45,006 bases of DNA. It comes from a virus. The position numbers and the translations under genes are program-made. Shown here one piece after another: positions 7,162 to 42,083 of the stretch; within the stretch, counting starts at the first letter, position 1, and each line of letters starts with the position of its first letter. Below the pieces are notes generated by a model, which was not told the origin of the DNA, made no database searches, and was given only the letters and a program-made list of their open reading frames with translations. Where the stretch lies: UHGV virus genome UHGV-0282798; one strand, 5' to 3'.

Positions 7162-7190
7162 TCTGTCTCTCCACTCGTTGGTGTAAATGA

Positions 7191-7219
7191 ATAGTAGCCT
7201 ATTCTATCTCAGTGTGCAA
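7191..7219 (-). promoter_or_regulatory. Sigma70-type promoter (minus strand) TTGCAC-17-TACTAT with AATAG-N4-CTATT dyad
   Basis: Reverse complement: TTGCAC (7214-7219), 17-bp spacer, TACTAT (7191-7196); dyad AATAGTAGCCTATT at 7190-7203. Confidence 0.45.
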
Positions 7220-7525
7220 GTAAATTTTATTGGCGTGTTATAGAATCTATGAACGACAGTAACGCGCGCTCCGCTTCTGCTTCTCTTTCTTCAAGCGACC
7301 AGGTAGCGGATTCCTCTGTTGCCGTTGCTATATCTGTTTTCACATCAATCATCGTGTTGATTAACGCGATTAGTCGTTCGGCCTGTTCTTTAGTAATCAT
7401 TGTTGCATCTCCTGCAATAGTCGCTTCTATTGTTGCGTTTGGTGAAATAGAACAAAAATGAGAAAAATGATACGCTGCTGTGTAGCAGCGTAAGTCACAA
7501 AGCCAAATAGTAACCTATTGACCTG

Positions 7526-8672: not shown

Positions 8673-8697
8673 CCCTCTGTCTCGTTTCGATAAGTGA

Positions 8698-8726
8698 ATA
8701 GTATCCTATTATGTTTGGGTGTGCAA
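8698..8726 (-). promoter_or_regulatory. Sigma70-type promoter (minus strand) TTGCAC-17-TACTAT with dyad
   Basis: Reverse complement: TTGCAC (8721-8726), 17 bp, TACTAT (8698-8703); dyad AATAGTATCCTATT at 8697-8710; about 30 bp upstream of the first minus-strand early gene. Confidence 0.45.
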
Positions 8727-8899
8727 GAGAATAGTTACGTTGCCGTTGTGATTCTTTCGTTTCTTAAAAGAGTACGCAACGCAGGGGGTGGGCATTAGCC
8801 CACCCCAGCGGAGTGAAGTACTCTCTACCTTGCTCACGGCAACTATAGAAACTTTTAATTATCAGTGACTTGGGTATTTAGGCGGGATTAACAATAGAC

Positions 8900-9000
8900 T
8901 ATGGCCCTTCCGAATGCGGGCAGCGACACTACACTCAGTGCTAACGCACCGCTCCGTTCTCCTGCCGCACCGCGGTCGCTTGTTCATACTTCACAAGCTC
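8900..9000 (-). ncRNA. Conserved structured 5-prime leader RNA or small RNA (putative), copy 1
   Basis: About 100 nt downstream of the repeat promoter are conserved between copies with compensatory changes in two hairpins; the only ORF through it is not conserved in copy 2. Confidence 0.35.
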
Positions 9001-9006
9001 AGGTGG

Positions 9007-9035
9007 AGCTTAGCATATTTTTAGTGAAAAGTCAA
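9007..9035 (-). promoter_or_regulatory. Sigma70 promoter inside repeat copy 1 (minus strand): TTGACT-17-TGcTAAGCT
   Basis: Reverse complement: -35 TTGACT (9030-9035), 17-bp spacer, extended -10 TGC TAAGCT (9007-9015); identical in copy 2. Confidence 0.5.
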
Positions 9036-9083
9036 TATCAGTAGCATCTTTTGTATCTTAGTAACTTTGTTGTTGCTTTTTGC

Positions 9084-12305: not shown

Positions 12306-12368
12306 AATAGTACCATATTAATTATTTTAGAAAAGCCCATTGACACGTGAATAGTTCGCTATTATAGT
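12306..12368 (+). promoter_or_regulatory. Promoter TTGACA-17-TATAGT with two AATAG-N4-CTATT dyads
   Basis: -35 TTGACA 12340-12345, -10 TATAGT 12363-12368; dyads AATAGTACCATATT (12306-12319) and AATAGTTCGCTATT (12350-12363); divergent from the repressor start at 12275. Confidence 0.5.
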
Positions 12369-13121: not shown

Positions 13122-13610
13122 ATGGATTGGCATGAGATATTCGACTATGACCGCGCCACAGGAAAATTGTATTGGAAAATACAGCCATCTCATGCGGTTA
13201 AGCCGGGTGAAGAGGCTGGAAGTGTGGGAACTGAGGGTTATGTAGATGTTGGTTTTGCAGGCCGTTTATATAAGGCGCATCGCATTATATGGGATATGAT
13301 GAACACTGACGATAAACTAACGCCGAACCACCAAATAGACCACATAAACCATATCAGAACGGATAATAGGATAGAAAATTTAAGGAAGGTACACCACTGT
13401 GACAACGCCAAAAATCAAAGCATGCGCGTAGACAATACCTCAGGTGTCGCGGGAGTATACTTCGACCGAACTAATAGAAAATGGAGGGCCCGCATTAGGG
13501 CGAGTGGCACGACCATTTGTTTGGGGAGATACGATAGTTTAGAAGAAGCCGCATGCGCACGCCAGAAAGCAGAAGAGATTTACGGGTTTCACAAAAATCA
13601 TGGGGGGTAA
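13122..13610 (+). CDS. HNH-AP2 homing-type endonuclease
   Basis: HQIDHINHIRTDNRIENLR (HNH) followed by AGVYFDRTNRKWRARIRASGTTICLGRYDSLEEAACARQKAEEIYG (AP2). ORF track starts at 12984; ATG 13122 (MDWHEIF) with RBS avoids overlap. Confidence 0.75.
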   Translation: MDWHEIFDYDRATGKLYWKIQPSHAVKPGEEAGSVGTEGYVDVGFAGRLYKAHRIIWDMMNTDDKLTPNHQIDHINHIRTDNRIENLRKVHHCDNAKNQSMRVDNTSGVAGVYFDRTNRKWRARIRASGTTICLGRYDSLEEAACARQKAEEIYGFHKNHGG

Positions 13611-15088: not shown

Positions 15089-15113
15089 CACCTGAATAGC
15101 AAGCTATTATAGT
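15085..15113 (+). promoter_or_regulatory. Promoter TTGACA-17-TATAGT with perfect dyad
   Basis: -35 15085-15090, -10 15108-15113; dyad AATAGCAAGCTATT 15095-15108; about 55 bp upstream of the SSB gene. Confidence 0.5.
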
Positions 15114-18611: not shown

Positions 18612-18892
18612 CCCCGGAAGGCAAGATTCAGAAATACGCAAAAGAGAGGTTCGAGGCCCTGGGCGGCCTCGTTAGAAAATTGTCGTACGAAAATAGAGTA
18701 GGCGCTCCTGACCTGCTGGTGATTCTCCCCTGGAGCATCGTCTGGTTCGTCGAGGTGAAGAAAGACGAAAACACGAAGCCAGACCCGCACCAGCTACGTG
18801 AGCACGAGCGGATGCGCAAACGCGGTGCAAATGTTTTTGTCGTTGGTTCGTTTAAACAGGTTGACGACCTAATAGCGAACTATTATAGTTAG
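18608..18892 (+). CDS. VRR-NUC domain nuclease
   Basis: GAPDLLVIL ... FVEVKK ... Q pattern typical of VRR-NUC. Track ORF 18593; ATG 18608 (MTPEGKIQ). Confidence 0.55.
   Translation: MTPEGKIQKYAKERFEALGGLVRKLSYENRVGAPDLLVILPWSIVWFVEVKKDENTKPDPHQLREHERMRKRGANVFVVGSFKQVDDLIANYYS
18861..18889 (+). promoter_or_regulatory. Promoter TTGACG-17-TATAGT with dyad
   Basis: -35 18861-18866, -10 18884-18889; dyad AATAGCGAACTATT 18871-18884; lies inside the 3-prime end of the VRR-NUC gene. Confidence 0.45.
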
Positions 18893-19114: not shown

Positions 19115-19794
19115 TTGTCTGGTCATTGTTTGACGGTTCGGGCCTTATGGCCCAACCGTGGGCAGAAGCAGGCCATACTTGCTATTGTTTCAACTACGAC
19201 GGTGCCGACCACGGCGACTACGCACGATTGGGCGCAAAAGTTGAACACGAGAACATCCACTATATAAACGCGTGGATTGATAATAAGTTCGACTTCGAGG
19301 TTGCGCCAGATATTATTTTTTCGTTCCCTCCGTGCACAGATTTAGCCGTTAGTGGCGCTGCGCATTTCGAAACCAAGCGGAAGAAGAACCCAACGTTTCA
19401 GGTAGGGGCCGTTATCACATGTAAAGTGGCTGCGCGTCTGGCTAAAAAGTACAACGTACCCTATATGATTGAGAACCCGGTTAGCGTTCTTTCGTCTTTA
19501 TGGCGTAAACCCGATTACGTGTTCAATCCTTACGACTACGGAGGTTATCTACCGGAAAACGACACACATCCAATGTTCCCAGAGTACATAAAACCGAGGG
19601 ACGCGTACCCTAAAAAGACATGTCTTTGGGTGGGTAATGGTTTCGTAATGCCGGTTAAGTCGGGTGTTGCCGTGGGTGATGGGTATTCTGACCAGCACAA
19701 CAAACTTGGCGGTAAATCAGTGCGGACAAAAACAATCCGCAGCCTCACCCCGCGGGGTTTTGCAAAAGCAGTTTACGAGGCTAATCATGTCTAA
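19111..19794 (+). CDS. Compact C5-cytosine-methyltransferase-like protein (~227 aa)
   Basis: Motif I SLFDGSG; motif IV DIIFSFPPCT (PC, but T replaces the usual Q); motif VI MIENP (ENV-like); RSLTPRGFAKAV resembles motif IX; no room for a normal target-recognition domain. Confidence 0.5.
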   Translation: MIVWSLFDGSGLMAQPWAEAGHTCYCFNYDGADHGDYARLGAKVEHENIHYINAWIDNKFDFEVAPDIIFSFPPCTDLAVSGAAHFETKRKKNPTFQVGAVITCKVAARLAKKYNVPYMIENPVSVLSSLWRKPDYVFNPYDYGGYLPENDTHPMFPEYIKPRDAYPKKTCLWVGNGFVMPVKSGVAVGDGYSDQHNKLGGKSVRTKTIRSLTPRGFAKAVYEANHV

Positions 19795-21211
19795 GTTTCA
19801 AAGGCGCGAGTACCAGAAACTCATGACTTCGTTCATGTTGCGGCACCATCGCTGTAACATATGGGCGAGCATGGGCGCCGGGAAGACTGGCAGCGTACTG
19901 TGGGCATTAAACCGACTGTTCCGCAACGGTCAAATTAACGATGACGACCGCGTGTTAATCCTTGCCCCGTTGCGCGTTGCGTCCGGCACATGGCCAGCAG
20001 AACAAGAAAAATGGCAATTCCCGTGTCTACGTGTCGTCGATGCAACTGGTTCGGAGAAGCGCCGCATCGCGGCGCTGGAGTCTGACGCTAACGTGGTGTG
20101 CACGAACTACGAAGTTATCGAGTGGCTGATTGACTACTACGGCAAAGACGACTGGCCTTTTACGGTTATCGTTGCCGATGAGAGCACGAAACTGAAGTCA
20201 TTCCGCAGCCGTTCTGGAGGTAGCAAGCGGGCAAAGGCGCTCAGCAAAGTGGCGTTCGGTAAAGTTAAGCGTTTTATCAACCTGACTGGTACGCCGTCGC
20301 CGAACGGCCTCAAAGACTTGTGGGGTCAGAACTGGTTTATCGACGCTGGCGAGCGCCTGGGGTCGTCGTACACGGCATTCACCGACCGATGGTTTAACTC
20401 TGTACAGAAAGGCAAATCCGCGATGGCGCGTGAGTATCATGCGCGCCCTGGCGCGGATAATGAAATTCACCAGAAGATGAAGGACATCAGTCTTACGATT
20501 GATGCCGCTGAGTGGTTCGGTTGTGAAGCGCCGATTATTGTTCCAGTTGAAATCGACCTGCCGAAGAAAGCACGTCAGGCGTACATCGATATGGAGGAAA
20601 AGTTATTCGCGGAACTGGAGAGCGGGGAAGTTGAAGCGGCTAACGCGGCGGCGAAGACGTCGAAGTGTTTGCAGATTGCATCCGGTGCCGTATATGTATC
20701 CGGGCCAGACGGCGACGCAACCAAAGACTGGGAGAAAGTGCACGACACGAAACTTGATGCTCTTGAGTCAATTGTTGAGGAGTTACAGGGTTCGCCGCTA
20801 TTGGTGGCCTATCAGTTCAAGCACGAACTGGAGCGTATCCTTAAGCGATTCCCGCAGGCGCAGGCGTTTTCTAAAGGTGCGAAGGGTAATAAGCAGATGG
20901 AAGCGTGGAACCGAGGAGAGATACCTATGCTATTGATACACCCAGCCTCCGCAGGCCACGGGCTGTCGCTACAACACGGCGGGCATCACATGGCTTTTAT
21001 GAGTCAGGGATGGAACCTGGAACACTATTTGCAGGTTATCGAGCGAATAGGTCCGGTAAGGCAGATGCAGTCTGGGTACAAACGGTCGGTATTCATTTAT
21101 CAAATAATAGCCCGAGATACTCTTGATGAAGTTGTCTCCGCTCGTACAGACGAGAAAAGGTCTGTACAGGACGAACTACTTAACTATATGAAGAGAAGGA
21201 GTAAGAAATGA
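19787..21211 (+). CDS. SNF2-family helicase
   Basis: GAGKTG (Walker A), ADESTK (DExx), LTGTPSPN, HPASAGHGLSLQ. Track ORF 19664; ATG 19787 (MSKFQRREYQ) overlaps the upstream stop. Confidence 0.75.
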   Translation: MSKFQRREYQKLMTSFMLRHHRCNIWASMGAGKTGSVLWALNRLFRNGQINDDDRVLILAPLRVASGTWPAEQEKWQFPCLRVVDATGSEKRRIAALESDANVVCTNYEVIEWLIDYYGKDDWPFTVIVADESTKLKSFRSRSGGSKRAKALSKVAFGKVKRFINLTGTPSPNGLKDLWGQNWFIDAGERLGSSYTAFTDRWFNSVQKGKSAMAREYHARPGADNEIHQKMKDISLTIDAAEWFGCEAPIIVPVEIDLPKKARQAYIDMEEKLFAELESGEVEAANAAAKTSKCLQIASGAVYVSGPDGDATKDWEKVHDTKLDALESIVEELQGSPLLVAYQFKHELERILKRFPQAQAFSKGAKGNKQMEAWNRGEIPMLLIHPASAGHGLSLQHGGHHMAFMSQGWNLEHYLQVIERIGPVRQMQSGYKRSVFIYQIIARDTLDEVVSARTDEKRSVQDELLNYMKRRSKK

Positions 21212-21396
21212 AATTGTTTTGTGTTAGCTCAAACGTACCTGAGTTCAAAGAGGGTGAAGAATATCTGGCCTACTATAACGGCATTGAGTACCGCGTAATT
21301 TATGATGACTCGGGCTACATAATCGCCGATTACGATGATGACTCGGGCTACATAATCGCCGAGTTCTTTAACGACGGTTTGGTGGAGTTCGAATGA
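21208..21396 (+). CDS. Small protein with internal tandem duplication
   Basis: ORF track; protein contains DDSGYIIA twice. Confidence 0.4.
   Translation: MKLFCVSSNVPEFKEGEEYLAYYNGIEYRVIYDDSGYIIADYDDDSGYIIAEFFNDGLVEFE
21304..21360 (+). repeat. Perfect 24-bp direct repeat separated by 9 bp
   Basis: gatgactcgggctacataatcgcc at 21304-21327 and 21337-21360. Confidence 0.8.
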
Positions 21397-21533: not shown

Positions 21534-21538
21534 AGAAA

Positions 21539-21568
21539 AGGCCCCAAACGGGGCCTTAGTTTTAGATA
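21539..21568. terminator. Bidirectional terminator hairpin between convergent blocks
   Basis: Stem AGGCCCC (21539-21545) / GGGGCCT (21550-21556), loop aaac, then TAGTTTTA; near-identical to the hairpin at 34422-34441. Confidence 0.6.
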
Positions 21569-28237: not shown

Positions 28238-28272
28238 AGTAAGATACTCCTATTATTTTAGGAGATACTAAC

Positions 28273-28923
28273 ATGATACCCACAGAAAAAGTAGCTAAGA
28301 GTATGTGGCTGCGCGCGAATTATCCCGCGAACAAAAGCAGCAAAACTAGGCGTGCAACTATATGCGATTTTGGCATAAATGATGCCGATTATGTGGTTAG
28401 TCCTAAGATAAACGGCAACCGTGAGCCGTGTCCTGCGTACGCTACGTGGCGAGGGATGATCCAACGTTGCATAGACGTCGAGTATAAAAACAAAAGACCT
28501 GCATACAAGGATGTAACTGTGTGGCATGGGTGGCAAAGGTTTATGTCCTTCCGTAGATGGTGGCTTTGTAATTACGTAGAAGGATGGGAACTAGATAAGG
28601 ACTTATTCTCTGGTATTAATAAGATATACAGCCCCACCACTTGCATTTTTATTCCGCAATGGTTGAATGTTTTTCTACTGGAAAGGAAAAATAGTGGGTC
28701 ACCTACAGGTGTTTTTTATGAAGAATCAAGAGGTAAATTTAAAGCCTCAGTGAAATATGAGAAAAAAACTATTAATCTAGGACGTTTTGAAACTCAGGAA
28801 GAAGCGCTAGATGCCTACATCGCTGAAAAGATAAGGATAGCAGAATCAAGAAGATGCGAGATAGAGGCGATAAGAGAAGGTATGTTCGCCCGCGTTATCG
28901 CCTTGATAAAAGAGGGGCGTTAG
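28273..28923 (+). CDS. AP2-domain protein, putative free-standing endonuclease with atypical N-terminal domain
   Basis: C-terminal AP2-like GVFYEESRGKFKASVKYEKKTINLGRFETQEEALDAYIAEK; Trp-rich N-terminal domain (YATWRGMIQRC ... VWHGWQRF) with no HNH motif visible; opposite strand to flanking tail genes. Confidence 0.5.
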   Translation: MIPTEKVAKSMWLRANYPANKSSKTRRATICDFGINDADYVVSPKINGNREPCPAYATWRGMIQRCIDVEYKNKRPAYKDVTVWHGWQRFMSFRRWWLCNYVEGWELDKDLFSGINKIYSPTTCIFIPQWLNVFLLERKNSGSPTGVFYEESRGKFKASVKYEKKTINLGRFETQEEALDAYIAEKIRIAESRRCEIEAIREGMFARVIALIKEGR

Positions 28924-32013: not shown

Positions 32014-32120
32014 TCTTTGATCCTTTGGTTAAGAGGTTACAGGTTAAGGTTGACGCGCCAGACGGGAACCACCCGCTTTTCGTGTGCGACACTAGGCGCA
32101 AACTTATTCTAGCACACTAC

Positions 32121-32149
32121 TTGCACACCCCAATATAATAGGGTACTAT
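32121..32149 (+). promoter_or_regulatory. Promoter TTGCAC-17-TACTAT with dyad (island promoter)
   Basis: -35 32121-32126, -10 32144-32149; dyad AATAGGGTACTATT 32137-32150; same TTGCAC/TACTAT class as 7191 and 8698. Confidence 0.5.
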
Positions 32150-32179
32150 TCACCTACACCAACAATGGAGGGATTTAAA

Positions 32180-33540: not shown

Positions 33541-34007
33541 AGTACCTTGATGTTTCAAAACAATTTAAATACTGCCCTGATACGGGGCAGGTTACCAGGA
33601 TATCTACTGGTGCTGAGGTTGGTACGGTTGGTGTAAGAGGATATCTGTGCTGCGGTATGGGTGGTAAAACAGTATATGTCCACCGCGTAGCATGGTGTCT
33701 TTATAATAAATGTGACTTAGACAGGAAAACACAAATAGACCACATAAACCATAACAGGCTAGACAATAGAATAGAAAATCTACGCGCCACCGACAATACA
33801 GGGAACAGTAAAAATAAAACTATGAGAAAGATAAATAAATCCGGGGCTACAGGTGTAAGTTTCCACAAAGCCGCGGGTAAGTGGCGCGCGTTTATAAAAG
33901 TTAACTACAAACAAGTGCATTTAGGGCTTTACGACGATTTTGATGTAGCGGTTGCCGCGCGTAAAGCCGCTGAGAGTAAATACGGTTTTCATGAAAACCA
34001 TGAGTAG
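33537..34007 (+). CDS. HNH-AP2 homing-type endonuclease
   Basis: HRVAWCLYN ... QIDHINHNRLDNRIENLR (HNH) and GVSFHKAAGKWRAFIKVNYKQVHLGLYDDFDVAVAARKAAESKYG (AP2); paralog of 13122-13610. Confidence 0.75.
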   Translation: MKYLDVSKQFKYCPDTGQVTRISTGAEVGTVGVRGYLCCGMGGKTVYVHRVAWCLYNKCDLDRKTQIDHINHNRLDNRIENLRATDNTGNSKNKTMRKINKSGATGVSFHKAAGKWRAFIKVNYKQVHLGLYDDFDVAVAARKAAESKYGFHENHE

Positions 34008-34249: not shown

Positions 34250-34418
34250 AAATATTATGAAAACGATATATGTAATCCGTGTATACGACGAAGAATGGGA
34301 CGAGTGGGTTGATATTTACGCTGTAGGTAGTAAGGAAGAGGCCTCTAAAGAGATGGCAGAACGGAGTGACCGAGGTCAGTTAACTAACTTCTACGAAATG
34401 CCATTCAAAAGTGAGTAA
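34200..34418 (+). CDS. Hypothetical small protein
   Basis: ORF track; true start probably an internal ATG (MSENIMKT or MKTIYVIRV). Confidence 0.35.
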   Translation: MKVWRSYESTGVILMSENIMKTIYVIRVYDEEWDEWVDIYAVGSKEEASKEMAERSDRGQLTNFYEMPFKSE

Positions 34419-34421
34419 GAA

Positions 34422-34448
34422 AAGGCCCCGAAAGGGGCCTTAGTTTTA
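34422..34448. terminator. Terminator hairpin closing the plus-strand island
   Basis: Stem AAGGCCCC (34422-34429) / GGGGCCTT (34434-34441), loop gaaa, then AGTTTTA; sits between the island and the convergent major tail gene. Confidence 0.6.
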
Positions 34449-36426: not shown

Positions 36427-36863
36427 TTTCTCACCTGAATAAAATACGCCACGACATCATCGTTAACCATCTTCTTCTCGATACCTACGACAGACCATTG
36501 CTCGCCGCCGGATTGCACCTTGTCTTCCATTTTCGGGACGACACTGCAATCCGCTTTAACAATCATGTCGCCCGCCTGAATCGTCGTACCGTTCACCAGT
36601 CCTGCGTTAACAGGAACCGGAACAGCTTTCAACGGCAGCACTTCATCCGCGGACCGGACATACTCACCGAGAACTTCATCCCACACTTTCGAGCCAGCGC
36701 GAACAAGAGATACCGTGCTACCGAATTTGGTTAGCAGGCGTGTACCGACGCCTTGCATACGTTTACTGAAAGCGGTGCTCATTTTAGCACCTCTTGCAGC
36801 GTCAAAAGAACACCGTAACTGTGCAAGACTGCTGCGGTAAGAAAACCAAAAACTACACCACAT
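36423..36863 (-). CDS. Head-tail adaptor-like protein
   Basis: Position only; start may be an internal Met (MSTAFSKRMQ). Confidence 0.35.
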   Translation of the reverse strand: MWCSFWFSYRSSLAQLRCSFDAARGAKMSTAFSKRMQGVGTRLLTKFGSTVSLVRAGSKVWDEVLGEYVRSADEVLPLKAVPVPVNAGLVNGTTIQAGDMIVKADCSVVPKMEDKVQSGGEQWSVVGIEKKMVNDDVVAYFIQVRK

Positions 36864-36876
36864 GTGAACTTATTCA

Positions 36877-37491
36877 TCAGGCGGCCTCCAGTCTCGAGAT
36901 AACCAGTAATGCGGATGGTGCTGTTCCCCATGCGGTTACGGTAGCCGCTTGTGGATATACGCCGCCGAAGTTGCTTCCGGCGCTATCCCGCATAATCTGA
37001 ACGGCAAACGTCTGGCCTGCGGTTGTGTTAATAACGACGCGAGATTCAATCGGGATTGTAGTATCAGCACTTACCAGTTTAGTAGCTGCTGGCGAGCCGT
37101 ACTGTGCGCCGTTAAGAAGAGTGCGCGATAACAGAATAGACGTCCCGCTAGCACCGGAGCGCCCTGCCTGTAACTTGATGCGAACGGCGTAGTTACCCGC
37201 AATGTTGAACGTAACCAGTCCCGCAGCATTAATCATTACCGGGTCTGAGGCGCTACCCTGCGCGGGACCGAAAGTTAACTGCAATGCCGTATCTACCGCG
37301 GTAGGCGCTTGTGTTACGGTAGACGCGGCACGGAGAACTTCAACCTCTTTAACACCGGGAGTGGCGTAAATAGGTGAGTCCGCCATCTGTGTCATTACTT
37401 CGCGTAACTTCTCGGGTGTGATAAGCCCGGTGGTGTTATCGGGAAGGTTCGCTCCGATAAGGGCGAACATCTCTGTTTTAGTCTTCGCCAT
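36877..37491 (-). CDS. Structural protein of unknown role
   Basis: 204 aa, Ala/Thr/Gly-rich; between connector and joining genes. Confidence 0.4.
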   Translation of the reverse strand: MAKTKTEMFALIGANLPDNTTGLITPEKLREVMTQMADSPIYATPGVKEVEVLRAASTVTQAPTAVDTALQLTFGPAQGSASDPVMINAAGLVTFNIAGNYAVRIKLQAGRSGASGTSILLSRTLLNGAQYGSPAATKLVSADTTIPIESRVVINTTAGQTFAVQIMRDSAGSNFGGVYPQAATVTAWGTAPSALLVISRLEAA

Positions 37492-40783: not shown

Positions 40784-41047
40784 CTATTCCAGAATATTCC
40801 TCACGTAATCCTGCAACATGAACACTTTCAGCCTCAGTTGCCGTACACATTCAGCGTTCTGAACGTCGATAGCCAAATCCTCGTCAGCATCACTACTTGG
40901 CGGTGCCAGCTTGCACGGCGGCTGCATCATTGTCGTATCCGGGGATGGAATTGGCGTTTGCGACGGCGCGGGACTTGAGTTGCACGCGCTCAGGGTCAAA
41001 AGTGCACACGCTGCGGCTAGGCGTTTTAATGTACTTAACGACTTCAC
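40784..41047 (-). CDS. o-spanin (Rz1-like lipoprotein)
   Basis: Signal peptide with lipobox LTLSAC, Pro-rich mature part; +1-frame gene overlapping the 3-prime half of the Rz-like gene. Confidence 0.6.
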   Translation of the reverse strand: MKSLSTLKRLAAACALLTLSACNSSPAPSQTPIPSPDTTMMQPPCKLAPPSSDADEDLAIDVQNAECVRQLRLKVFMLQDYVRNILE

Positions 41048-41279
41048 GGGTAATCACCTCTGATTTCGTCTTGCCTTCGTTGTCGGCGGCTGCGGCCTTT
41101 GACTCATCCTGCTGCTGCCGTTGTGTCTTCTTAGCTAACTCAGCCTTCGCTTTTTGGGTTTGTTCGGTAACGAGGTCAAGCCGTCCCGCATCCCAGCCGC
41201 GGTTGTATTGGTACCCCCCGTACAGCCATACCGTAAGCAAGCCTGCCGCCGTTAGTGTTGCTGTGTTGCTTAGATTCAT
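40893..41279 (-). CDS. i-spanin (Rz-like)
   Basis: N-terminal TM (TATLTAAGLLTVWLYGGY) then a charged helical periplasmic region; overlaps the Rz1-like ORF. Confidence 0.55.
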   Translation of the reverse strand: MNLSNTATLTAAGLLTVWLYGGYQYNRGWDAGRLDLVTEQTQKAKAELAKKTQRQQQDESKAAAADNEGKTKSEVITREVVKYIKTPSRSVCTFDPERVQLKSRAVANANSIPGYDNDAAAVQAGTAK

Positions 41280-41397
41280 GTTTCCCCTTTCTCGATAAGT
41301 AAAGCCCCGCCTTAAAGCGGGGCGCTAGTCCTTATCATTTAAACATAGAAACGGCGTAATCTCAGTAAACCAGTTACTCTTTACACAAGCAAAAGAG

Positions 41398-41532
41398 TAT
41401 GGCCCTTCCGAACGCGTCAGCGTAACTACACTCAGGACTTACGTCCCGCTCCGTTACCTGCCCGCGCCGCGGTCGCTCGTTCATACTTCACAAGCTCAGG
41501 TGGAGCTTATCATATTTTTAGTGAAAAGTCAA
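41398..41532. repeat. Repeat copy 2 of the ~135-bp promoter-plus-leader element
   Basis: Aligns with 8900-9035; lies between the terminator at 41591-41617 and the Rz start at 41279. Confidence 0.85.
41504..41532 (-). promoter_or_regulatory. Sigma70 promoter inside repeat copy 2 (minus strand): TTGACT-17-TGaTAAGCT
   Basis: Reverse complement: -35 41527-41532, -10 41504-41509 with upstream TG. Confidence 0.5.
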
Positions 41533-41590
41533 CTATTCGAATAGTTTATTCCAACATTTACAATTGATTGGAATAACTGGAATAATTACG

Positions 41591-41617
41591 AGCCATAAAA
41601 AGCCCCTTTCGGGGCTT
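41591..41617 (-). terminator. Intrinsic terminator (mainly minus strand)
   Basis: Stem AAGCCCC (41600-41606) / GGGGCTT (41611-41617), loop tttc; on the minus strand it is followed by UUUUAUGG. Confidence 0.55.
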
Positions 41618-41621
41618 CAGT

Positions 41622-42083
41622 TTATTCTGGCTTAGTCACCTTCGCCGCTTTGCTTACACCCTCTACACCATCGGCATCGGTAACTTTAACGAAGTATTCA
41701 CCGACCACATTAACCGTCAGAGACAGAGCTTCTTCTGGGGCGTTGACTACTTCCTTACCGTCTTTGTACCAGGTCAGCACATACGGCGCTTTGCCCGCCT
41801 TAACTTCGACAGTGATAGTTGCGCTGCCGTCTGCCAGTTCCGCATCCTGCGGTTGCACAGAGAAATACACGTCGCCAGCGTCCGCCAGATACGGAATCTC
41901 ATAAAGCATACCCGCCGCGGGCAGCGCGATGCCTGTTTTATCCGCAAACGGCATATCGTCTACCGGTGTACCGAGTACACTTTCGTCTTCAATAAACACC
42001 ACGTTCTCACCAGAGCCGGATACACGGGCGTACTGGACTACGCGGCGCGCGGGTACATCGGTTACTTTGAAAAAGCCCATCAT
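41622..42083 (-). CDS. Ig-like domain protein
   Basis: GKAPYVLTWYKDGKEV ... GEYFVKVTD looks like an I-set/Big-type domain; position after the Mu-F-like gene. Confidence 0.45.
   Translation of the reverse strand: MMGFFKVTDVPARRVVQYARVSGSGENVVFIEDESVLGTPVDDMPFADKTGIALPAAGMLYEIPYLADAGDVYFSVQPQDAELADGSATITVEVKAGKAPYVLTWYKDGKEVVNAPEEALSLTVNVVGEYFVKVTDADGVEGVSKAAKVTKPE

What the first reader, a model, noticed from the sequence alone, without database searches (positions are those of the whole stretch)
8900..9035. A ~135-bp promoter-plus-leader element is present in two copies 32 kb apart
Segment ~8900-9035 is repeated in direct orientation at ~41398-41532, roughly 88% identical by eye. Each copy carries a near-consensus minus-strand sigma70 promoter (TTGACT, 17-bp spacer, TG-extended -10 TAAGCT) followed by about 100 nt of conserved transcribed sequence. 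Similarity ends just upstream of the -35. The only ORF through copy 1 (47 codons, plus strand) is broken by a 1-nt indel and an early stop in copy 2, so the conservation is not protein-coding. No other segment of this length was seen duplicated in the genome.
Basis: seen in the sequence. Interest (0 to 1): 0.8.

Follow-up and report, generated by a model that had tools for sequence, protein, structure and literature searches.

The report
Duplicated promoter with structured leader RNA
A phage of the Kagunavirus group carries two copies of a promoter joined to a ~100-nt folded, non-coding RNA; comparison with relatives suggests the RNA heads the capsid-gene operon across this phage subfamily, is absent from Rfam, and may help RNA polymerase read through the many terminators downstream.

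Summary
The repeat is real: window 8892-9045 and 41390-41545, direct orientation, about 87-89% identical, and the longest repeat in the window. The window is a Kagunavirus-like (Guernseyvirinae) siphophage. On the minus strand each copy has TTGACT, a 17-nt spacer and TGnTAAGCT. A ~104-nt RNA follows (8897-9000; 41395-41497).

The RNA is non-coding and folded: a 5' hairpin at +3, then a long irregular hairpin. Across 30 distinct sequences from two genera, 94.8% of cells pair (30-41% when partners are slid) and 15 of 28 pairs change on both sides. G-U versus A-C counts favour the minus strand. Neither Rfam nor the searched papers describe it.

The "late" copy lies between the Hoc-like decoration and Rz spanin genes. 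Every relative examined keeps a non-coding gap there; a matching RNA was detected in Kagunavirus, Jerseyvirus and (weakly) phiEap-2-like phages. It heads a head-gene block with hairpin-plus-T-run sites at gene junctions and no other convincing promoter. The "early" copy is an optional cassette, always a different variant.

Best explanation (about 0.4, inferred): a cis-acting leader that makes RNA polymerase terminator-resistant, like HK022 put in layout but not homologous. Rivals: a trans-acting sRNA, or an mRNA-stabilising leader.

The parts
9030..9035 (-). Copy 1 (early locus): -35 hexamer TTGACT
   Evidence: Sequence read; exact pattern match 9007-9035; invariant in all but one of 33 distinct promoter+core sequences
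9007..9015 (-). Copy 1: extended -10, TGcTAAGCT (TG 9015-9014, hexamer 9012-9007); 17-nt spacer 9013-9029
   Evidence: TG and hexamer are fixed while the middle base of TGn varies (C/A/G) across relatives
8897..9000 (-). Copy 1: structured non-coding RNA core, variant A; predicted start at 9000/8999. P1 hairpin 8998-8978, long hairpin (P2/P2b/P3) 8975-8910, unpaired tail AAGGGCCAUAGUC 8909-8897
   Evidence: Covariance model hit 109.6 bits; MFE fold; covariation; strand test
8825..8896 (-). Copy 1: less conserved 3' leader region. It is also present in K1G, which lacks the promoter+core here
8766..8824 (-). Copy 1: compound hairpin (outer AGAGUAC/GUACUCU, inner GGGGUGGGC/GCCCACCCC) followed by UUUU (8769-8766); terminator-like
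   Evidence: Sequence read; fold; conserved in early loci of variants A and C, replaced by an unrelated hairpin in variant E loci
8691..8727 (-). Downstream AATAG..CTATT-type promoter (TTGCAC-17-TACTAT) that drives the small leftward early genes (8672 down to 6465)
   Evidence: Inverted-repeat family I1/I2; motif 8 sites vs 0.14 expected; ORFs
41600..41617 (-). Terminator hairpin after the Hoc-like decoration gene (41622-42083), just upstream of copy 2
   Evidence: gene identity from PHROG 3945, E 5.9e-85
41533..41585 (-). Upstream array specific to the late copy: palindrome GGAATAAACTATTCGAATAG abutting the -35, plus two TTATTCC repeats; candidate regulator-binding sites
   Evidence: 3 of the window's 9 GGAATAA sites lie at 41546-41585; sequence; the same arrangement is seen in Ent1, SE2, phiEap-2 and TS33; absent upstream of copy 1
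41504..41532 (-). Copy 2 (late locus): promoter, TTGACT (41532-41527), 17-nt spacer, TGaTAAGCT (41512-41504)
41395..41497 (-). Copy 2: structured non-coding RNA core, variant B (the commonest); predicted start at 41497
   Evidence: Covariance model hit 121.3 bits; MFE fold; covariation
41295..41394 (-). Copy 2: 3' leader ending in hairpin GCCCCGC-UUUAAG-GCGGGGC (41323-41304) plus UUUACUUAU, then the RBS and the Rz start codon at 41279
   Evidence: Terminator scan; compensatory CCCCGC/GCGGGG to CCCTGC/GCAGGG in relatives; ORFs

Best explanation
SHOWN: each copy is a sigma70-type extended -10 promoter fused to a ~100-nt non-coding RNA. The RNA folds into a 5'-terminal hairpin and a long irregular hairpin, with an unpaired purine-rich tail (CGGAAGGGCC). 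Every Guernseyvirinae relative examined keeps a non-coding gap upstream of the Rz spanin gene, at the head of the Rz-scaffold-capsid-to-major-tail operon. A matching RNA was detected there in Kagunavirus, Jerseyvirus and, weakly, phiEap-2-like phages. The promoter+RNA unit moves as a cassette. INFERRED: the RNA acts in cis. As it emerges it folds and engages the RNA polymerase that made it, alone or with a host or phage factor. That polymerase then resists the hairpin-plus-U-tract terminators downstream, so one promoter can express a long multi-terminator operon. This is the logic of HK022 put RNA. The late copy, which has upstream GGAATA-type sites, would be the regulated late promoter. The early copy, which lacks those sites, would load read-through-competent polymerase at the start of the leftward early/lysis/packaging transcription unit.
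For: Structure and strand. Promoter conservation pattern across three lineages. Position: the RNA starts at +1 to +3 of the transcript, as putL does (PMC9378689). It is co-directional with the downstream genes at both loci. Need for read-through: hairpin-plus-T-run sites lie on the minus strand at gene junctions, at 43185-43170, ~41617-41600, 41323-41304, 38932-38911 and 34441-34422, and also at 8766-8824 and 7492-7471 in the early-left unit. Minus-strand sigma70-like matches occur only at chance frequency, and no AATAG-type promoter lies anywhere in 34-45 kb. The Rz start codon is only about 25 nt past the hairpin. Context independence: the same core is followed by three unrelated hairpins. 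Variant A occurs at either locus (L025). K1G lacks promoter+core but keeps the downstream leader. Two copies downstream of two promoters, similar but not identical, parallel putL/putR (PMC9378689). A -10-like hexamer is repeated in the initial transcribed region of two lineages (TAAGCT..TGAGCT; TACGCT ACC TACGCT). That arrangement drives sigma-dependent pausing at lambda PR' (my own recollection of the lambda literature); putL carries a -10-like element further in, at +23 to +28 (PMC9378689).
Against: There is no functional or transcript evidence of any kind. There is no detectable homology to put: model R1 finds nothing at HK022 putL. The RNA is about 100 nt, against about 70 nt for put. The tail-gene block (32013 down to 21562) also contains terminator-like hairpins but starts from an AATAG-type promoter region without this RNA, so the element cannot be the only solution. 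In Jerseyvirus, phiEap-2, TS6 and TS33 the hairpin after the leader has no U-tract, so the immediate 'terminator' is not universal. The -10-like repeat is absent in phiEap-2-like phages. The terminator calls are pattern matches only. At the early locus a second promoter follows the hairpin, so read-through is not strictly required there.
Confidence: 0.4

Rival explanations
1. A trans-acting small RNA. The ~100-nt folded domain is released by termination at the downstream hairpin (about 200-230 nt in Kagunavirus) or by processing of the leader. It then acts elsewhere, for example by titrating a host protein or pairing with an mRNA. The second copy under an unregulated promoter would supply it earlier in infection.
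For: In the window each copy has the classic promoter-RNA-hairpin/T-run anatomy of an sRNA gene. An invariant unpaired motif, CGGAAGGGCC, is conserved across three lineages. The module works in two genomic contexts.
Against: Outside Kagunavirus no terminator follows the RNA, so release would need processing. The U-tracts are short for an Hfq-type sRNA. The complement of the tail is not enriched in the phage (12 matches vs 11 expected). A duplex scan finds only the element's own antisense. E. coli genomes hold no similar sequence that would suggest mimicry of a host RNA. Host targets could not be screened.
Confidence: 0.25
2. A passive 5'-UTR element that does not touch RNA polymerase. The 5'-terminal hairpin and compact fold protect the long late mRNA from 5'-end-dependent RNase E decay, and/or shield the 230-330-nt untranslated leader from Rho.
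For: P1 begins within 1-3 nt of the predicted 5' end in every lineage, with different sequences. From my own knowledge of the ompA 5'-UTR work, this is the geometry known to stabilise E. coli mRNAs. The element always sits at the extreme 5' end of a long untranslated leader.
Against: A simple stabiliser needs only a terminal hairpin. Here about 100 nt of structure, an internal loop (GGAG / AGUGUAG) and an invariant unpaired decamer are conserved, which suggests specific recognition. At the early locus most of the mRNA would start from the downstream AATAG promoter and would not carry the element.
Confidence: 0.15
3. An RNA binding site for a phage-encoded protein: either a nut-like site for an unrecognised N-type antiterminator, or an operator for translational or autoregulatory control of the late operon.
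For: Conserved unpaired motifs and a tetraloop-capped hairpin. Many small early proteins of unknown function lie beside the early copy.
Against: No antiterminator-like family was found among the 10 neighbouring proteins, and none is annotated in Bas71, K1G or GZMU_E2010. Two different variants coexist in one genome and differ mainly in the hairpin stem, while the loops are GNNA-type. That argues the hairpin is a structural strut rather than a specificity determinant.
Confidence: 0.1
4. A DNA-level or coding feature: a duplicated promoter whose downstream similarity is a hitch-hiking remnant, a plus-strand terminator, or a small protein gene.
For: A plus-strand hairpin plus T-run overlaps the -10 (8995-9011). 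ORFs of 36-47 codons exist on both strands.
Against: Compensatory substitutions occur in 15 of 28 pairs. G-U outnumbers A-C by 86 to 5, which favours the minus strand. ORFs are broken or absent in other variants. No plus-strand genes lie upstream that would need a terminator.
Confidence: 0.04

Closest known systems
HK022 put RNAs (putL, putR): cis-acting processive antiterminator RNAs (PMC9378689)
   Same: Transcribed immediately downstream of a sigma70 promoter, with the first helix at about +3. A two-stem-loop plan with bulges. Two similar but non-identical copies per genome, each heading a long operon with terminators. No dedicated antiterminator protein evident. A -10-like element in the early transcribed region.
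   Different: No sequence or structure homology. About 100 nt instead of about 70 nt. Found in virulent Guernseyvirinae rather than a lambdoid temperate phage. The universal copy heads the late structural operon, not the early operons. Most genomes have a single copy. Activity is untested.
Lambda-type late promoter PR' with its 6S leader and tR' terminator (Q/qut system)
   Same: A promoter, then a ~200-nt non-coding leader ending in a terminator-like hairpin, then lysis and head genes. The -35 is TTGACT. A -10-like hexamer lies at the start of the transcript. HK022 PR' can be read.
   Different: No Q-like protein was found. In the Q system the leader's RNA fold is not the conserved feature (my own knowledge), whereas here the fold co-varies strongly.
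Other RNA-based processive antiterminators: Bacillus EAR, pLS20 conAn2, Tn916 canT (PMC11658703)
   Same: Structured RNAs at the head of long operons that contain internal terminators. They are orientation-specific and work with heterologous terminators, which would fit the cassette behaviour seen here.
   Different: Those are from Gram-positive elements and are unrelated in sequence. No match to any Rfam family, EAR included if Rfam holds it, even at permissive thresholds on the two loci. canT is about 450 nt.
phi29 p4-type switch (one regulator represses early promoters and activates the late promoter) - recalled from my own knowledge as a lead only
   Same: GAATAG/CTATTC-type half-sites lie between -35 and -10 of eight other promoter-like sites, and lie upstream of the -35 at the late-locus promoter.
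   Different: No regulator has been identified. The arrangement of half-sites differs between the two contexts. Nothing was tested.

Membership tests
HK022 put RNA | Sequence/structure homology to putL/putR | tested here: not met
   Model R1, run with filters off on the whole HK022 genome, gives no hit at putL (28240-28310). Its best match is 13.4 bits, E 0.19, elsewhere.
HK022 put RNA | RNA encoded directly downstream of a promoter, folding into two stem-loops | tested here: met
   P1 starts at +1 to +3 and a second long hairpin follows. Independent MFE folds of four lineages agree, and covariation supports the helices.
HK022 put RNA | Acts in cis to make RNA polymerase read through intrinsic and Rho-dependent terminators without phage proteins | not testable with these tools
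   Only context could be examined: terminator-like sites downstream and no alternative promoter.
HK022 put RNA | Binds the beta' zinc-binding domain; blocked by rpoC ZBD mutations | not testable with these tools
   Requires genetics or biochemistry.
Lambda Q/qut late antitermination | Phage-encoded Q-family protein | tested here: not met
   No such PHROG among 10 neighbouring proteins. None is annotated in K1G, Bas71 or GZMU_E2010. Not every window ORF was scanned.
Lambda Q/qut late antitermination | -10-like pause-inducing element in the initial transcribed region | tested here: inconclusive
   Present in Kagunavirus (GAGCTT/TGAGCT) and Jerseyvirus (an exact repeat of TACGCT), but absent in phiEap-2-like phages.
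Any Rfam 15 family | Reaches the family's gathering score | tested here: not met
   No hit in the whole window. Only chance-level hits at E >= 1 in either locus, and none over the core.
Riboswitch / attenuator | Aptamer coupled to a specific expression platform by mutually exclusive pairing | tested here: not met
   The same core precedes three unrelated hairpins 75-110 nt away, and no terminator at all in other lineages.
Hfq-type trans-acting sRNA | Discrete transcript ending in a Rho-independent terminator with a long U-tail; seed complementary to targets | tested here: inconclusive
   The hairpin with a short U-tract occurs only in Kagunavirus. No phage target was found. Host targets were not screened.
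Small protein gene | ORF conserved in frame across relatives | tested here: not met

The most novel reading that the evidence does not exclude
Guernseyvirinae time and drive their late genes with a previously unrecognised class of RNA polymerase-modifying leader RNA. It would be a second, independently evolved put-like processive antiterminator in enterobacterial phages. It is combined with an activator-dependent late promoter and can move as a promoter+RNA cassette to other operons.
Probability: 0.3. Interest if true: 0.8.

Novelty: new variant of a known kind. Interest (0 to 1): 0.62.

Why it matters
RNA-only processive antitermination is known from very few systems: put, EAR and canT, with conAn2 needing a protein partner. 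Only put has a known structure. A new, compact (~100 nt) example that acts on E. coli or Salmonella RNA polymerase would be directly testable with existing put tools, namely rpoC ZBD mutants and cryo-EM of roadblocked complexes. It would also explain how a large group of therapeutically used phages expresses its structural genes. That group has 496 database records carrying the neighbouring scaffold gene, no RNA polymerase gene among the annotations examined here (K1G, Bas71), and no known late regulator. Even if the mechanism turns out differently, this is a well-supported RNA family that is currently annotated as a 'hypothetical protein' or not annotated at all. It also marks what is probably the late promoter.

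Tried and rejected
(1) Rfam at gathering and at permissive thresholds, and tRNA/tmRNA search: nothing. (2) Plus strand as the functional strand: rejected by G-U/A-C counts and by the lack of upstream plus-strand genes. (3) Protein coding on either strand: rejected. (4) Homology to HK022 put: rejected. (5) Host mimicry or a prophage origin: no match in 5,426 E. coli genomes. The genome-contig scan gave 47 pattern matches, of which only one, a 6-kb phage-like MAG contig, was real. (6) The metagenome scan gave 120+ pattern matches, mostly chance hits in GC-rich contigs. 23 real hits added no new variant. (7) Target search within the phage for the conserved tail and for the whole RNA: nothing beyond chance. 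The duplex scan with 80-nt tiles is crude. (8) Pseudoknot between the P1 loop (GUAUG) and the tail (CAUAC): considered by eye and dropped, because variant C changes both without compensation. (9) Leader-peptide idea (GGAAGGG as an SD, plus UUG 10 nt downstream): mini-ORFs of 3, 6 and 10 codons with no conservation, and absent in phiEap-2; dropped. (10) Published Kagunavirus RNA-seq (PMC12645636): gene-level only, with no intergenic data in the text or in the listed supplement titles. (11) The first MAFFT alignment misaligned the inner hairpin between variants. It was replaced by model-based alignments, which lean towards the imposed structure. The raw sequences and independent folds show the same helices.

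Full report
OBSERVATION. The two segments align over about 150 nt (window 8892-9045 and 41390-41545) in direct orientation, with one 1-nt indel. The repeat finder reports 87% identity over 115 nt and 89% over the adjoining 27 nt, and no other repeat longer than 51 nt. blastn between the copies gives E = 2e-43. The string TTGACT-N14-TGNTAAGCT occurs exactly twice in the window, at 9007-9035 and 41504-41532 on the minus strand, against 0.00 expected.

Three corrections apply. First, the -10 hexamer TAAGCT matches the consensus at only 3 of 6 positions. It does keep the A at position 2 and the T at position 6 and has a TG extension, but the generic promoter scan does not call it. Second, weaker similarity continues about 100 nt beyond the core.

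WHAT THE GENOME IS. The window is a Kagunavirus-like siphophage of the subfamily Guernseyvirinae. Its closest record is Escherichia phage vB_EcoS_GZMU_E2010. blastn finds the element in 181 phage records from Escherichia, Salmonella, Raoultella and Shigella hosts. It is unannotated there, or overlapped by a 'hypothetical protein'.

TWO LOCI. Alignment of 38 copies from IMG/VR contigs shows two locus types. The 'late' locus is copy 2 of the window. It lies between the Hoc-like head-decoration gene (41622-42083; PHROG 3945) and the Rz/Rz1 spanin genes (40893-41279, 40784-41047), followed by scaffold and major capsid genes. All IMG/VR contigs and annotated phage genomes examined here have it. The 'early' locus is copy 1. 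It lies at the start of the leftward small genes and is divergent from the primase-helicase gene. Only a subset has it. K1G lacks the promoter and core there but keeps the downstream 3' region and hairpin. The promoter+core therefore behaves as a cassette.

The core occurs in at least six Kagunavirus variants (A-F). Variant A sits at the early locus in the window but at the late locus in L025. In all 16 two-copy genomes the two copies are different variants, 78-87% identical.

IT IS A FOLDED, NON-CODING RNA ON THE MINUS STRAND. From the predicted start (G at 9000 / 41497) the sequence folds into three parts:
- P1, a 6-bp hairpin beginning at +3.
- A long irregular hairpin: P2, P2b, an internal loop GGAG / AGUGUAG, and P3 capped by a GNNA-type tetraloop.
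- An unpaired tail, AAGGGCCAUA.

The variants differ by compensatory changes. P3 is GUGC/GCAC, GGAC/GUCC, GUGCC/GGCAC or CACG/CGUG. One P2 pair is U-A, C-G or A-U. On a model-based alignment of 28 distinct Kagunavirus sequences, 96.0% of cells pair, against 30-41% when partners are slid by 1-3 columns. Seven pairs change on both sides. G-U cells outnumber A-C cells by 86 to 5, giving 96.0% pairing on the minus strand against 85.4% on the plus strand. About 52 of those G-U cells come from two invariant pairs, but variable U-A to U-G changes in P1 and G-U to C-G changes in P3 point the same way.

The minus-strand ORF that starts in the P1 loop is 41, 36, 9 or 19 codons long, or has no ATG, depending on the variant. 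No Rfam family matches.

THE FAMILY IS WIDER THAN BLASTN SHOWED. The neighbouring scaffold protein occurs in 496 phage records. All six diverged relatives examined keep a 320-460-nt non-coding gap upstream of Rz. The covariance model, run with filters off, detects a diverged homologue in Jerseyvirus Ent1 and SE2 (30.5 bits, E 1.5e-5) and weakly in phiEap-2 (E 0.03).

Reading those gaps shows the same plan with different sequences:
- Ent1: TAGACT-17-TGtTACGCT, P1 ACGCU/AGCGU, ACCGCGG, P3 GGGCGC/GCGCCC, UUCGGAAGGGCC.
- phiEap-2: TGGACT-17-TGaTAACCT, P1 CGUUC/GAACG, P3 GCC-GUAA-GGC, CGGAAGGGCC.
- TS6-type phages: a still more diverged two-hairpin leader.

Independent MFE folds of Kagunavirus B and F, Jerseyvirus L258 and the TS6 type give the same architecture. 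The Ent1 fold and the phiEap-2-type folds were less clear. A joint Kagunavirus + Jerseyvirus alignment of 30 distinct sequences gives 94.8% paired cells and 15 of 28 pairs with changes on both sides, covering 102 cells. Slid controls give 30-41%. These alignments are fitted to the model and the sequences are related, so the numbers are supportive rather than formal probabilities.

The promoter is supported by its own conservation pattern: hexamers, the 17-nt spacing and the TG are fixed, while the spacer and the 'n' of TGn vary. Metagenome and bacterial-genome scans added no new variant and no host copy.

CONTEXT. All head genes, and further on the tail genes, lie on the minus strand. Hairpin-plus-T-run sites lie on that strand at gene junctions:
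- after portal (43185-43170)
- after Hoc (~41617-41600)
- after the element (41323-41304)
- after the major capsid gene (38932-38911)
- after the major tail gene (34441-34422)
- after the tail chaperone (31463-31442) and the tape measure gene (28928-28913)
- in the early-left unit (8766-8824, 7492-7471)

The phage's other promoter-like family, AATAG-N3-6-CTATT, has 8 sites against 0.14 expected. These lie at 7190, 7416, 7506, 8697, 12350, 15095, 18871 and 32137. None lies in 34-45 kb or 0-7 kb. That motif has been noted before as a PHIRE-predicted promoter motif (PMC9825357). Minus-strand sigma70-like matches in the head block occur at chance frequency. The Rz start codon lies about 25 nt past the hairpin. 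So the element's promoter is the only evident promoter for Rz-scaffold-capsid-...-major tail, and its transcripts must pass several terminator-like sites.

The late copy, and only the late copy, is preceded by a palindrome (GGAATAAACTATTCGAATAG) abutting the -35, plus two TTATTCC repeats. The same arrangement is seen in Ent1, SE2, phiEap-2 and TS33. This suggests a regulated, probably activator-dependent, late promoter.

One important caveat: only Kagunavirus copies have a U-tract after the hairpin that precedes Rz. The Jerseyvirus, phiEap-2, TS6 and TS33 hairpins do not. The universal unit is therefore promoter + structured 5' leader, not a terminated sRNA gene.

MECHANISM. I favour, at about 0.4 and as an inference, a cis-acting leader that renders the transcribing RNA polymerase resistant to downstream terminators. 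That is the logic of HK022 put: about 70 nt, two stem-loops, starting at +3 after PL, two copies per genome, no phage protein needed (PMC9378689; putL read). Four points argue for it:
- the position at +1 to +3 of the transcript;
- the two-hairpin plan;
- the need for read-through in the operon it heads;
- the cassette behaviour, with the same core preceding three unrelated hairpins. This argues against a riboswitch-type coupling to a specific expression platform and for a terminator-independent action.

A -10-like hexamer is repeated at the transcript start in two lineages. From my own recollection of the lambda literature, that placement is the one that drives sigma-dependent pausing at PR'; putL carries its -10-like element further in, at +23 to +28 (PMC9378689).

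Points against:
- there are no data on transcripts or function;
- there is no homology to put;
- the tail-gene block has terminator-like sites but no such RNA;
- the early locus has its own downstream promoter;
- the -10-like repeat is missing in phiEap-2-like phages.

Rivals are a trans-acting sRNA (0.25), a passive mRNA-stabilising or Rho-shielding leader (0.15), an RNA site for an unidentified phage protein (0.1), and DNA-level or coding explanations (0.04). No antiterminator-like protein was found near the element or in three annotated relatives. No phage target for the conserved tail was found.

COMPARISON AND NOVELTY. The element works like put in layout but fails the homology test, so it is not a member of that family. 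Its genomic arrangement also resembles lambda PR'-6S-tR' (HK022 PR' read), but no Q protein is evident, and here it is the RNA fold that is conserved. Other RNA-based processive antiterminators (EAR, conAn2, canT; PMC11658703) are unrelated and come from Gram-positive elements. Neither Rfam nor five searches of the held literature turned up a description of this RNA. I rate it a new variant of a known kind. The RNA family itself is well supported and appears undescribed; the mechanism is a hypothesis that could be tested quickly.

Noticed in passing
window 7190-7203, 7416-7431, 7506-7519, 8697-8710, 12350-12363, 15095-15108, 18871-18884, 32137-32150: The palindrome AATAG-N3-6-CTATT occurs 8 times (0.14 expected). 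Each site lies between the -35 and -10 of a promoter-like site (TTGACA-17-TATAGT or TTGCAC-17-TACTAT). These sites head the replication genes, the small early-left genes and the divergent region at 32.1 kb. Published work calls the motif a PHIRE 'phage promoter' (PMC9825357), although no RNA polymerase gene appears in the K1G or Bas71 annotations. It looks like an operator shared by all early/middle promoters.
   Followed up: partly
window 41533-41585; also L216:1690-1735, L218:1650-1710, L221:1540-1600: GGAATA-N3-TATTCC palindrome about 6 nt upstream of the late-locus -35, plus two TTATTCC repeats about 30-45 nt further up. It is conserved across Kagunavirus, Jerseyvirus, phiEap-2 and Hafnia TS33. 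It shares the GAATAG/CTATTC half-site with the AATAG..CTATT family, which suggests one regulator could repress the early promoters and activate the late one.
   Followed up: partly
window 9007-9012 with 8996-9001; L216:1759-1773: The -10 hexamer is repeated a few bases downstream, at the transcript start (TAAGCT CCACC TGAGCT in Kagunavirus; TACGCT ACC TACGCT in Jerseyvirus). The repeat also forms the 5' strand of P1. On the plus strand it creates the hairpin that the scanner calls terminator-like (8995-9011).
   Followed up: partly
window 13332-13382 and 33732-33782: Second-longest direct repeat: 51 nt, 84% identical (CAAATAGACCACATAAACCATA...). Both copies lie inside plus-strand ORFs, among the replication genes and the exonuclease/kinase genes. 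Unexplained.
   Followed up: no
window 21302-21367: Tandem duplication of a 33-nt unit (91% identical), just beyond the last long plus-strand ORF (19664-21211) and close to the bidirectional terminator at 21534-21564.
   Followed up: no
window 21534-21564, 34418-34448, 41595-41625: A family of near-identical GGCCCC/GGGGCC hairpins. Two of the three (21534-21564 and 34418-34448) sit between convergently transcribed gene blocks and have T-runs on both strands, so they could act as shared bidirectional terminators.
   Followed up: partly
L048 (K1G) 36775-36805: At the early locus of K1G, which lacks the promoter+core, there is a copy of the late-locus hairpin (GCCCCGC..GCGGGGC) in inverted orientation. 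This points to mosaic exchange of regulatory modules between the two loci.
   Followed up: no
window 32020-32100 (minus strand): The leader of the tail-gene block contains a GC-rich stem (GCGCC...GGCGC) enclosing UAGUGUCGC. The same 9-mer occurs in variant A of the element. This may be chance. I did not test whether the tail operon has its own structured leader.
   Followed up: no
L174 (JAEWLW010000073.1) and hit H113 (PP389045.1): A 6-kb contig binned as a 'Bacillota bacterium' MAG carries the Guernseyvirinae early-locus arrangement, so it is probably mis-binned phage DNA. A record named 'Pseudomonas phage vB_PsS_LDT325' has a scaffold protein whose identity to the query (87.3%) is the same as that of the Salmonella jerseyviruses, so the host label is suspect.
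   Followed up: no
L291 (HK022) 36875-36890 vs window 9026-9038: HK022 PR' and copy 1 share the 13-nt string GATATTGACTTTT around the -35. The only (non-significant) match of the element's model in HK022 also falls in the PR' leader (13.4 bits, E 0.19). This is probably chance.
   Followed up: partly
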